Shown here: positions 48,133-49,953 of the stretch, piece by piece
Layout: each line of letters starts with the position of its first letter
How positions within the stretch are numbered: the stretch's first letter is position 1
Source of the DNA: Naegleria gruberi
Taxonomy: Eukaryota
Strand: one strand, 5' to 3'
NCBI GenBank assembly: GCA_000004985.1
Contig: GG738866.1
Length of the DNA: 64,000 bases
The notes under the pieces: generated by a model
Database searches by the model: none
What the model was told of the DNA's origin: nothing
Seen by the model: the letters and a program-made list of their open reading frames with translations, nothing else
Program-made: the position numbers and the translations under genes

Positions 48133-49953
48133 TTAATTGAAATAGTGCTTTGTGTGTTCTCTTGGATGGAAATATAGTGGATACTTGTTAGTGTTAATGT
48201 AGAACATTGATTGGTCAGTCTCCATTTCTGGGAATTCAGAATGTTTCTTTGTGAGAGTAAAGTTTCTAATGACATTGATCAAAAGGAAATGGAGCTCTGT
48301 ATTTGCAACACGACTTCCGGGACATTTTCTTAACAAATAGTTAATACTATTACAAAAGAAACAAATAACTTACCTTGCACCAACCTATATTATTCACATT
48401 TTCAACATTTTCAAAATGAATTCGAAAGGAGAAATGTTTAGAATCAGTAAAATTAAAAAGAAACAACTTACTCCGAAAGGAATTGAAGAAAACATTGATT
48501 TTGGAGCAAGAGGGGATTTCTTTTCATGTCTCTCAGGAATAAATTCCAAAGCTCTCGGAACGTATTCATCTTTCATGCTTGGATAATAATTCATGAAAAT
48601 TGCAATAGTTTCCTTTGGTAGAATATATCCACCAATTTCAATATCAGAATTCAATTGTCTTCCCATTGTAATGTAAGCAAATGAATTGAATCTTAAAACT
48701 TCTTCAACAAATTGTCTCACCAACTTGAGTTGTTTGTATTGCTCTGGGGTGATGATTAGTCCATTTTCAGATGAAACTTCATCCAAAGCCGGAGGACCAA
48801 AAACCTCAAGGCACTCGTTATAGAGCTTTTCTTGATATTCTGGATGATGAGCCAATCTGTACAAGATAAAATTCATGATACGACTTGTAATATCCACACC
48901 TCCCTGAATAAATGTAGAGAGAACTGTTGACACCTTTTCATTTGAGTTGGTGGCTCCCTCTGCCTTCTTTACAAGAATTTCGTAAAATCTTGGCTTGGCA
49001 TTTTCTGGTTGTGAAGCTCCAAATCTTTCAACACAATATCTGGCATTGTCAATCACTTGATCGTAATAACTCTCCAATGTCTTGTACTCCTCTGTCTTGA
49101 AATATTTGTAGAGTGGGAACTTGTAATCTAATCTTCCACACAAATCAAGAATTGTGATGGCTTTCTTTGAGAAATCGTCAAGTTTGAATGGTAAACTCTT
49201 TTCAAGCTCTTCAGTCATTTTGACACCAAAGAAAATTTTCATAATTGCATCGAATGCATATCTAGAAGTTGCTTCGAGACCATCATCAAGTCTGAATTGA
49301 TTTTCACCAACTTTTACAAAGTTCTTCTTCAATTGTCTGATCAAATCACTGTTCATTTCTGTCAGTTGAGGTACCACGATTTGATCGAGAAACTCTGGTT
49401 TCATGGCAAGGTTGAAGATTTGACGAATTTCATTCCAATTCTCTTCAATCTTCATTTCAATAGGTACCATTTCATAACCACGGCTTTCTTTGTAATATCT
49501 TGAAGGATTTAGAACTGTTCTACGTTCCTCAACTCTGGCAAGATCAGCAATCCAGTATGGGTTTGAAATGATAACCATATTTTTGTTTAAAGCAGTCAAC
49601 TTGACCATCTCTCCATACTCATTACACAAATCAAGAAAATAACTCATTGTATTCTTGGAGTGTTTCTTGATATCCAGATAGTTACCAAGAATTGGAAGAG
49701 GCTTAGGGCCTGGAATTTCTCCAAATGGTTTGGCAACAGATTTGGCCACATCTACTGTACCATCCTCTTTATGATAGGGACACTTGGCTTCAGTGTTGGC
49801 AGCAACAGATGAAATAGTTATGGATTCCTTTGTGGAATCTTGGTGATGGTACAATCTATTGTTGCTGTGGTGTGTTGTTAAAACAGAGAGAACCTGTTGT
49901 AGTAGAGGTTTGTGGATGAGGGCAGCATGTCTGATGGATTTGAGTGATGACAT
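48133..49953 (-). CDS. Cytochrome P450. Exons 48472..49953, 48374..48384 (an 11-nt micro-exon), 48133..48328 (introns 87 and 45 nt).
   Basis: Splicing gives ...FIPERHEKK...FSSIPFG|VGAR|KCPGSRVANTELHFLL..., which reconstitutes the canonical heme-binding FGxGxRxCxG loop. The ExxR-region helix K is present upstream. Both donors are GTAAGT. Confidence 0.75.

What the first reader, a model, noticed from the sequence alone, without database searches (positions are those of the whole stretch)
48329..48471. An 11-nt micro-exon encodes the core of the P450 heme-binding loop
The unspliced ORF ends ...SIPFGVSCFF with no Cys ligand. Joining exon 1 (ending PFG, GTAAGT donor), an 11-nt exon GTTGGTGCAAG at 48374..48384, and exon 3 (starting AAAATGTCCC) gives PFG-VGAR-KCPG, the canonical FGxGxRxCxG. 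Both flanking introns, 87 and 45 nt, have GTAAGT donors and AG acceptors, and the phases close exactly. Micro-exons this small are easily missed by gene predictors, so automated annotations of this gene would probably be truncated or lack the Cys ligand.
Basis: seen in the sequence. Interest (0 to 1): 0.55.

Follow-up and report, generated by a model that had tools for sequence, protein, structure and literature searches.

The report
Annotated 11-base exon in Naegleria P450
An 11-base exon between two very short introns really does supply the middle of the haem-binding loop of a Naegleria gruberi cytochrome P450, but the public gene model already contains it, so this is a correct reading of an ordinary gene with one small evolutionary curiosity.

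Summary
On the minus strand, exon 1 (49953..48472) ends in PFG. It is followed by an 87-nt GTAAGT...AG intron, the 11-nt exon GTTGGTGCAAG (48384..48374), a 45-nt GTAAGT...AG intron, and exon 3 (48328..48133). Splicing gives a 562-aa P450 with FGVGARKCPG. Of 22 in-frame GT-AG models for this region, it is the only one that restores the motif. Chance produces such an exon in about 2 of 10,000 shuffles.

The closest relative, a metagenome contig 71% identical in protein, has intron 1 at the same site. There GTTGGTGCCAG-AAAATGTCC is uninterrupted, which independently validates the join. Exon 3 is under the same purifying selection as exon 1.

Naegleria gruberi XP_002677635.1 / EFC44891.1 (NAEGRDRAFT_67298) is identical over all 562 residues. 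No transcript data could be consulted.

No relative examined shares the intron pair. The family shows five intron positions within 35 nt of the haem loop, each confined to one clade. The intron that creates the micro-exon is seen only in N. gruberi, most simply as a lineage-specific gain.

The finding is already known as a gene model, and interest is low.

The parts
48472..49953 (-). Exon 1 of the P450 gene (residues 1-494). It runs from the ATG at 49953 to ...SSIPFG.
   Evidence: ORF; spliced model; identical to public protein P0001; Pfam PF00067 E=7.8e-65.
48385..48471 (-). Intron 1: 87 nt, phase 0, GTAAGT...TATAG, 23% GC.
   Evidence: An intron at the same position and phase (77 nt, GTAAGTTG...TTATAG) is present in orthologue L001.
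48374..48384 (-). 11-nt micro-exon GTTGGTGCAAG. It encodes Val495-Gly496-Ala497 and the first two bases of Arg498 in the FGVGARKCPG Cys-pocket.
   Evidence: It matches GTTGGTGCCAG in L001 at 10 of 11 bases, and in L001 that sequence is contiguous with exon 3.
48329..48373 (-). Intron 2: 45 nt, phase 2 (inside the Arg498 codon, AG|A), GTAAGT...TTAAG, 20% GC, with a TTAAC branch-like motif 13 nt upstream of the AG.
   Evidence: It is absent from orthologue L001 as an exact 45-nt alignment gap and from eight other family loci.
48133..48328 (-). Exon 3: third base of Arg498, Lys499, the Cys500 haem thiolate ligand (TGT at 48324..48322), the L-helix and C-terminus, and the TAA stop at 48135..48133.
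   Evidence: dN/dS is about 0.11 against L001, the same as exon 1.

Best explanation
Window 48133..49953 (minus strand) is the Naegleria gruberi cytochrome P450 gene NAEGRDRAFT_67298. It has three exons.

The middle exon is a constitutive 11-nt micro-exon. It supplies Val-Gly-Ala and two thirds of the Arg codon of the Cys-pocket FGVGARKCPG. Both flanking introns must be removed to put Cys500, the haem thiolate ligand, and the C-terminal 64 residues in frame.

Inferred mechanism: the two introns are short (87 and 45 nt) and each carries a perfect GTAAGT donor. They are therefore probably recognised across the intron (intron definition) and removed one after the other, so the tiny exon does not need to be recognised as a unit. 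Failure of either splice gives a truncated protein without the Cys ligand.

Shown: the gene structure and its uniqueness, identity to the public model, the orthologue that lacks intron 2, and purifying selection on exon 3.

Inferred: the splicing itself (no transcript data), the intron-definition mechanism, and that intron 2 was gained in the N. gruberi lineage rather than lost in its relative.
For: - Sequence and frame.
- Only 1 of 22 in-frame GT-AG models gives F..G.R.C.G.
- Chance rate of 113 in 500,000 shuffles.
- Public protein P0001 is 100% identical over 562 aa, with accessions EFC44891.1 / XP_002677635.1.
- All ten heterolobosean relatives have PFG[VI]GAR[KR]CPG with the same spacing.
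- Orthologue L001 has intron 1 at the same site but the micro-exon fused to exon 3.
- Exon 3 has dN 0.19 and dS 1.78; exon 1 has dN 0.17 and dS 1.46.
- Introns of 40-50 nt with GTAAGT donors are normal in this family: L003 43 nt, L005 50 nt, L008 40 nt.
- A Naegleria fowleri RNA-seq study set its minimum intron length to 30 bp (PMC8296547).
Against: No transcript evidence was available. P0001's 90%-identity cluster has a single member on a single contig, the genome model itself, so no transcript-derived copy turned up.

The public model is itself a prediction, so its agreement with mine is not fully independent.

dS between the two orthologues is saturated. The selection test therefore cannot exclude a very recent inactivation in N. 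gruberi.
Confidence: 0.9

Rival explanations
1. The 45-nt segment is an unspliced insertion, so the N. gruberi copy is a pseudogene or truncated gene ending ...PFGVGAR* (GTT GGT GCA AGG TAA).
For: The segment is absent from the closest orthologue and from all other family members examined. No transcript data are available.
Against: The segment begins with a perfect GTAAGT, ends in AG, is 20% GC like intron 1, and its removal restores frame and motif exactly. The rest of the gene has no other lesion. Exon 3 shows the same constraint as exon 1.
Confidence: 0.04
2. A different splice pattern is used, for example a single intron 48467..48369 or 48406..48329. This would give a P450 with an aberrant, longer loop before KCPG.
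For: Twenty-one other GT-AG combinations keep the frame into CPGSRV.
Against: None of them has the Gly-x-Arg of the Cys-pocket or the invariant spacing seen in all ten relatives. They use weaker donors than the two GTAAGT sites. The orthologue's contiguous VGARKCPG matches only the micro-exon model.
Confidence: 0.02
3. The micro-exon is real but is included in a regulated way. Skipping it, or retaining an intron, would be used as an off-switch, because every alternative outcome yields a frameshifted or truncated protein without the haem ligand.
For: Every alternative outcome is non-productive. An 11-nt exon between two introns is sterically demanding, so some mis-splicing is plausible. This is inference only.
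Against: There is no evidence of regulation. Both donors are consensus-perfect. Relatives work without this arrangement, so it is not a conserved regulatory device.
Confidence: 0.07

Closest known systems
Public gene model NAEGRDRAFT_67298 (EFC44891.1 / XP_002677635.1 / UniProt D2VEJ3), Naegleria gruberi 'predicted protein'
   Same: It has the identical 562-aa product, including PFGVGARKCPG. That product can only come from the same three-exon join.
   Different: Nothing differs. The finding rediscovers this model. No paper in the searchable library mentions the locus tag.
Micro-exons and very short introns in fungal P450 genes (Phanerochaete chrysosporium P450ome, PMC1184071)
   Same: That paper describes P450 genes with micro-exons of 2-10 aa (shortest exon 6 bp) and frequent 45-55 bp introns. 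The phenomenon is the same and the intron size class is the same.
   Different: The organism is an intron-rich basidiomycete, whereas Naegleria has about 1.7 exons per gene (PMC8296547). The passages I read say nothing about a micro-exon inside the Cys-pocket.
Animal mitochondrial-clan and clan-3 P450s (CYP301A1, CYP49A1, CYP302A1, CYP12, CYP27C1; solved structures CYP11A1, CYP24A1, CYP3A4)
   Same: These are the best matches outside Heterolobosea, at 24-30% identity over 80-95% of the protein. The best solved-structure matches are CYP3A4 at 2.5e-25, CYP11A1 at 5e-24 and CYP24A1 at 9e-20. The gene shares the KPFxEIPGPKPLPxLGN entry motif with insect CYP301A1. Its N-terminus is basic and free of acidic residues, with no obvious hydrophobic anchor (reading of the sequence).
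   Different: Identity is only about 25-30%. The clan assignment, mitochondrial versus clan 3, is not resolved by these data. Localisation and redox partner were not tested.
Near-intron pairs, intron sliding and lineage-specific intron gain (general literature; my own knowledge)
   Same: Homologous genes carry introns a few nucleotides apart, and each position is confined to one clade.
   Different: No source sequence for the new intron was found, and no mechanism could be tested.

Membership tests
Cytochrome P450 superfamily (Pfam PF00067) | A match to the family profile above the curated threshold | tested here: met
   219.9 bits against a cut-off of 22.8, E=7.8e-65, covering residues 81-548 and profile positions 2-459 of 462.
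Cytochrome P450 superfamily (Pfam PF00067) | Cys-pocket FxxGxRxCxG with the thiolate Cys | tested here: met
   FGVGARKCPG is present only after the micro-exon is spliced in. G494 is invariant, and G496, A497, R498, C500, P501 and G502 are nearly invariant, in the 11-sequence alignment.
Cytochrome P450 superfamily (Pfam PF00067) | K-helix ExxR and the PERF-type motif | tested here: met
   EVLR (E418, R421) and FIPERH (E474, R475) are invariant columns. The PERF motif is the variant PERH.
Cytochrome P450 superfamily (Pfam PF00067) | I-helix [AG]Gx[DE]T[TS] | tested here: inconclusive
   The sequence is GGVDITS, with G352, D354 and T356 invariant. An Ile replaces the first Thr, so this is close to the canonical motif but not identical to it.
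Micro-exon (internal exon of 30 nt or less) | An internal exon of 30 nt or less, flanked by canonical acceptor and donor sites and keeping the reading frame | tested here: met
   11 nt, preceded by TATAG| and followed by |GTAAGT, and the frame closes.
Micro-exon (internal exon of 30 nt or less) | Presence in mature transcripts | not testable with these tools
   No RNA-seq or EST resource was available. P0001's 90%-identity cluster has a single member on a single contig, the genome model itself.
Micro-exon (internal exon of 30 nt or less) | The encoded residues are conserved in homologues | tested here: met
   VGAR or IGAR occurs in all ten relatives. The same 11 nt, 10 of 11 identical, are exonic in L001.
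Mitochondrial-clan P450 | Phylogenetic grouping with CYP11/24/27/301/302/12 to the exclusion of other clans | tested here: inconclusive
   The top non-heterolobosean database hits are mitochondrial-clan CYPs, but the top solved structure is CYP3A4 of clan 3. My NJ tree contained only mitochondrial-clan outgroups, so it cannot discriminate.
Mitochondrial-clan P450 | A cleavable mitochondrial presequence and dependence on a ferredoxin (adrenodoxin) partner | not tested
   There is only the impression of a basic, acid-free N-terminus with no hydrophobic anchor (sequence). No predictor was run.

The most novel reading that the evidence does not exclude
Intron 2, the intron that creates the micro-exon, may be a lineage-specific gain in N. 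gruberi, and the haem-loop region of this heterolobosean P450 family may be a hot spot of intron turnover.

Five distinct positions lie within 35 nt of gap-free coding sequence:
- phase 2 in the codon before [LI]PFG;
- phase 2 in the Pro codon;
- phase 0 after PFG;
- phase 2 in the Arg codon;
- phase 1 in the Gly codon of CPG.

Each position is confined to one clade. Two members have no intron here: L009 is contiguous at the DNA level, and P0015 is a metagenome ORF that reads uninterrupted through VFGKGARKCPG, though its DNA was not examined.

An ancestor carrying all five introns would need exons of 6, 7, 11 and 11 nt. Repeated gain or sliding in an otherwise intron-poor excavate (about 0.7 introns per gene) is therefore the simpler reading. 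If so, the family would be a natural test bed for how introns are gained.
Probability: 0.5. Interest if true: 0.4.

Novelty: already known. Interest (0 to 1): 0.18.

Why it matters
As a gene structure it matters little. The public Naegleria gruberi annotation already has it, and micro-exons with roughly 45-nt introns in P450 genes have been described before.

It is a useful positive control. A reader working from raw sequence alone recovered an 11-nt exon correctly.

The only part that might interest specialists in intron evolution is comparative. The intron that creates the micro-exon is missing from the nearest orthologue. In addition, related heterolobosean P450s place their haem-loop intron at four other positions within 35 nt. 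That points to intron gain or sliding in an intron-poor lineage.

Tried and rejected
1. Intron 2 as a decayed duplicate of intron 1 plus the micro-exon (tandem-duplication origin). Their 5' ends look alike by eye: GTAAGTTGTTTCTTTTTAAT against GTAAGTTATTTGTTTCTTTTGTAAT. A global alignment scored 13.5 against a shuffle mean of 12.6 (sd 4.8), p=0.41. Among the 35 other GTAAGT sites in the window, intron 1 ranks only joint second in similarity to intron 2, with scores of 13, 12 and 12 at the top. Rejected as unsupported.

2. Intron 2 or intron 1 as a member of a repeated, introner-like family. A blastn-short search of both introns against the 64-kb window found only chance matches of 15 nt or less. 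Only the window could be searched.

3. More orthologues from JGI metagenomes. A protein-pattern scan and an exact-pattern DNA scan both returned nothing.

4. Genomic DNA of the two N. gruberi paralogues P0003 and P0007. They are not on record in the contig index, so whether other P450s of the same genome share the intron pair remains untested.

5. Synteny between the window and L001. Only the P450 itself matches, and L001 is a 3-kb contig.

6. Another P450 in the window. There is none.

7. GTAAGT enrichment as evidence. The window has 36 GTAAGT sites, against my rough composition-based expectation of about 44. The hexamer alone is therefore not evidence; the argument rests on frame, motif and the orthologue.

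Full report
**What is in the sequence.** The finding lies on the minus strand. Reading 48620 down to 48050 gives, in order:

- ...TCA ATT CCT TTC GGA (ending at 48472);
- GTAAGTTG...AATATAG (48471..48385, 87 nt);
- GTTGGTGCAAG (48384..48374, 11 nt);
- GTAAGTTA...TTGTTAAG (48373..48329, 45 nt);
- A AAA TGT CCC GGA AGT CGT... through to TAA at 48135..48133.

Joining the three exons gives a 1689-nt in-frame CDS and a 562-aa protein with FGVGARKCPG. The introns are 23% and 20% GC, against 37% for the CDS. Every coordinate, length, splice dinucleotide and phase in the finding is correct.

Leaving the micro-exon out gives PFGKMSRKSCCKYRAPFPFDQCH*. Retaining intron 2 reads GTT GGT GCA AGG TAA, that is VGAR followed by a stop. 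Retaining intron 1 gives the ORF end ...VSCFFLILLILNISPFEFILKMLKM*.

**Is it more than chance, and is it the only solution?** I enumerated all GT-AG models with one or two introns of at least 25 nt that stay stop-free and in frame into CPGSRVANTELH. There are 22, and only the micro-exon model contains F..G.R.C.G. The others give loops such as PFGVIICFFCNSINYLLRKCPG.

I then shuffled the 143-nt interval with its terminal GT and AG fixed. A suitably placed AG / xGxR(2/3) / GT 11-mer appeared in 113 of 500,000 trials. GTAAGT by itself is not enriched: the window has 36 sites, against my rough composition-based expectation of about 44. The weight therefore rests on frame, motif and comparison.

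**Identity of the gene and the state of annotation.** The spliced protein is a cytochrome P450 (PF00067, 219.9 bits, E=7.8e-65). The protein search returned P0001, 'predicted protein [Naegleria gruberi]', at 100% identity and 100% coverage over 562 aa. The sequence is letter for letter my model. Its accessions are EFC44891.1, XP_002677635.1, UniProt D2VEJ3 and locus tag NAEGRDRAFT_67298, on a 469-kb scaffold.

The window's 33.9% GC fits the 33% reported for N. gruberi NEG-M (PMC8296547). No paper in the searchable library mentions the locus tag.

**Independent comparative support.** The nearest relative is P0002, at 71% identity. It is a read-through ORF from an ENA metagenome contig that ends ...SSLPFGVSC. 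Its DNA (L001) reads CCA TTT GGT | GTAAGTTG...(77 nt)...TTATAG | GTT GGT GCC AGA AAA TGT CCT GGA.

Intron 1 is thus at the identical position and phase. The 11 nt of the N. gruberi micro-exon (10 of 11 identical) run straight into exon 3. In the pairwise DNA alignment intron 2 appears as one clean 45-nt gap. This shows that GTTGGTGCAAG is coding and is joined to AAAATGTCC, without relying on any gene predictor.

Nei-Gojobori estimates between the two orthologues give dN 0.17 and dS 1.46 for the P450 part of exon 1, and dN 0.19 and dS 1.78 for exon 3. Exon 3 is therefore constrained in the frame that, in N. gruberi, only the micro-exon model delivers. dS is saturated, so a very recent inactivation cannot be formally excluded.

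**Do other family members share the intron pair?** None of those examined does. All relatives have PFG[VI]GAR[KR]CPG in a gap-free block. I mapped the introns exactly in nine loci.

| Position | Location | Loci and intron lengths |
|---|---|---|
| A | phase 2 in the codon before [LI]PFG | N. lovaniensis L002 (86 nt) and L006 (83 nt), N. fowleri L004 (128 nt), JGI metagenome L008 (40 nt) |
| B | phase 2 in the Pro codon | Willaertia magna L003 (43 nt) and L005 (50 nt); metagenome protein P0010 ends ...VSVP, which is consistent |
| C | phase 0 after PFG | the window and L001 |
| D | phase 2 in the Arg codon | the window only |
| E | phase 1 in the Gly codon of CPG | ENA metagenome L007 (88 nt) |
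| none | no intron here | Logan genomic contig L009; P0015, a metagenome ORF that reads uninterrupted through VFGKGARKCPG (DNA not examined) |

All of these donors are GTAAGT. In an NJ tree with 100 bootstraps, each position maps to one clade:

- window + L001: 100;
- B clade: 81;
- A clade: 85;
- L007 + P0015: 95.

Positions A to E span 6+7+11+11 = 35 nt. A single ancestor carrying all five is implausible, so there has been gain and/or sliding. For D, one gain on the N. gruberi branch is the most parsimonious history. Precise loss of one of two introns 11 nt apart by cDNA-mediated conversion also seems less likely. Both points are inference.

The DNA of the two N. gruberi paralogues was not retrievable. 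The question as it applies within the same genome remains open.

**Origin of intron 2.** By eye its 5' end resembles that of intron 1. Alignment against intron 1 plus the micro-exon is no better than shuffles (p=0.41). Intron 1 ranks only joint second among the 35 other GTAAGT sites. Neither intron has another copy in the window.

The only residual feature is a 3-nt AAG direct repeat at the intron's boundaries. That is too short to mean anything.

**How it most likely works.** Shown: the structure, and that the encoded product is a complete P450 with ExxR (E418, R421), PERH (E474, R475), GGVDITS, and the Cys-pocket with Cys500.

Inferred from general knowledge of splicing in short-intron organisms: each intron (87 and 45 nt, both with a donor perfectly complementary to U1) is defined across the intron and removed in turn. 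The 11-nt exon therefore never has to be recognised by exon definition. Intron 2 has a TTAAC motif 13 nt upstream of its AG that could serve as a branch site (sequence).

Introns of 40-50 nt are normal in this family. A minimum intron length of 30 bp was used for Naegleria fowleri RNA-seq mapping. Any failure to include the micro-exon is non-productive. A regulatory use of that fact cannot be excluded, but nothing supports it.

**Comparison with what is known.** Micro-exons of 2-10 aa (shortest exon 6 bp) and 45-55 bp introns in P450 genes were described for Phanerochaete chrysosporium (PMC1184071). What is mildly unusual here is the host genome, which has about 1.7 exons per gene and an average intron of 203 bp, and the location inside the Cys-pocket.

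The protein family's nearest non-heterolobosean relatives are animal mitochondrial-clan CYPs at 24-30% identity. The nearest solved structures are CYP3A4, CYP11A1 and CYP24A1. Clan membership is unresolved.

**Verdict.** Novelty is 'already known', because the model has been public under these accessions.

Interest is low (0.18). The only new element is the comparative intron pattern, which is suggestive but rests on nine loci, an NJ tree and no mechanism.

Noticed in passing
window 49771..49782 (minus strand), residues 58-61 of the P450: In the otherwise fast-evolving N-terminal extension (dN 0.67 against 0.17 for the P450 domain), Cys58-Pro59 are the only invariant residues after Met1, and His61 is nearly invariant, across 11 heterolobosean P450s ('CPYH'). 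A CP dipeptide also occurs in the further members P0009, P0010, P0014 and P0017 and in one insect CYP301A1 ('EEVCPYE'). From my own knowledge, a Cys-Pro dipeptide in a presequence-like region resembles a haem-regulatory motif. This was not tested.
   Followed up: partly
window 48133..49953 (the whole protein): The best matches outside Heterolobosea are animal mitochondrial-clan P450s (CYP301A1, 49A1, 302A1, 12, 27C1). The protein shares the KPFxEIPGPKPLPxLGN entry motif with insect CYP301A1. Its N-terminus is basic, has no acidic residue before D39, and has no obvious hydrophobic anchor. This may be a mitochondrial-type P450 family outside animals. However, CYP3A4 is the top solved-structure match, so the clan is unresolved.
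   Followed up: partly
L002, L003, L004, L005, L006, L007, L008, L001 and window 48329..48480: There are five different intron positions within 35 nt around the haem loop. Each is specific to one clade of this P450 family, and all have GTAAGT donors. This looks like a hot spot of intron gain or sliding in an intron-poor lineage.
   Followed up: yes
window 46822..47817 (minus strand): The gene immediately downstream of the P450 appears to be split by two short introns. One has a GTAAGT donor near 47565 and the other a GTACGT donor near 47338. Its N-terminus resembles a signal peptide, followed by a '...DINNDGLPDFV...' stretch that looks like an FG-GAP or calcium-binding repeat (ORFs, sequence). 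The gene model was not worked out.
   Followed up: no
L007 1..1417 and 1501..3394: The ENA metagenome contig carrying the position-E family member has a second, different P450 gene directly upstream on the same strand, with Cys-pocket LPFGAGERACPG. The two form a tandem P450 pair.
   Followed up: no
L006 (N. lovaniensis PYSW02000035.1), protein P0012: The public 928-aa N. lovaniensis model fuses a Nudix hydrolase domain to the P450 (PF00293 + PF00067). All other family members are 556-615 aa, so this is probably two neighbouring genes merged by the predictor.
   Followed up: no
protein P0016 compared with P0008 (N. fowleri locus L004): A prokaryote-style ORF call on an ENA contig reads through an in-frame, stop-free intron of the N. 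fowleri gene. It inserts about 50 residues between ...LAPI and EMTFFEDW, and it ends ...KSMYSR at the position-A donor. The N. gruberi gene has no intron at that upstream site.
   Followed up: no
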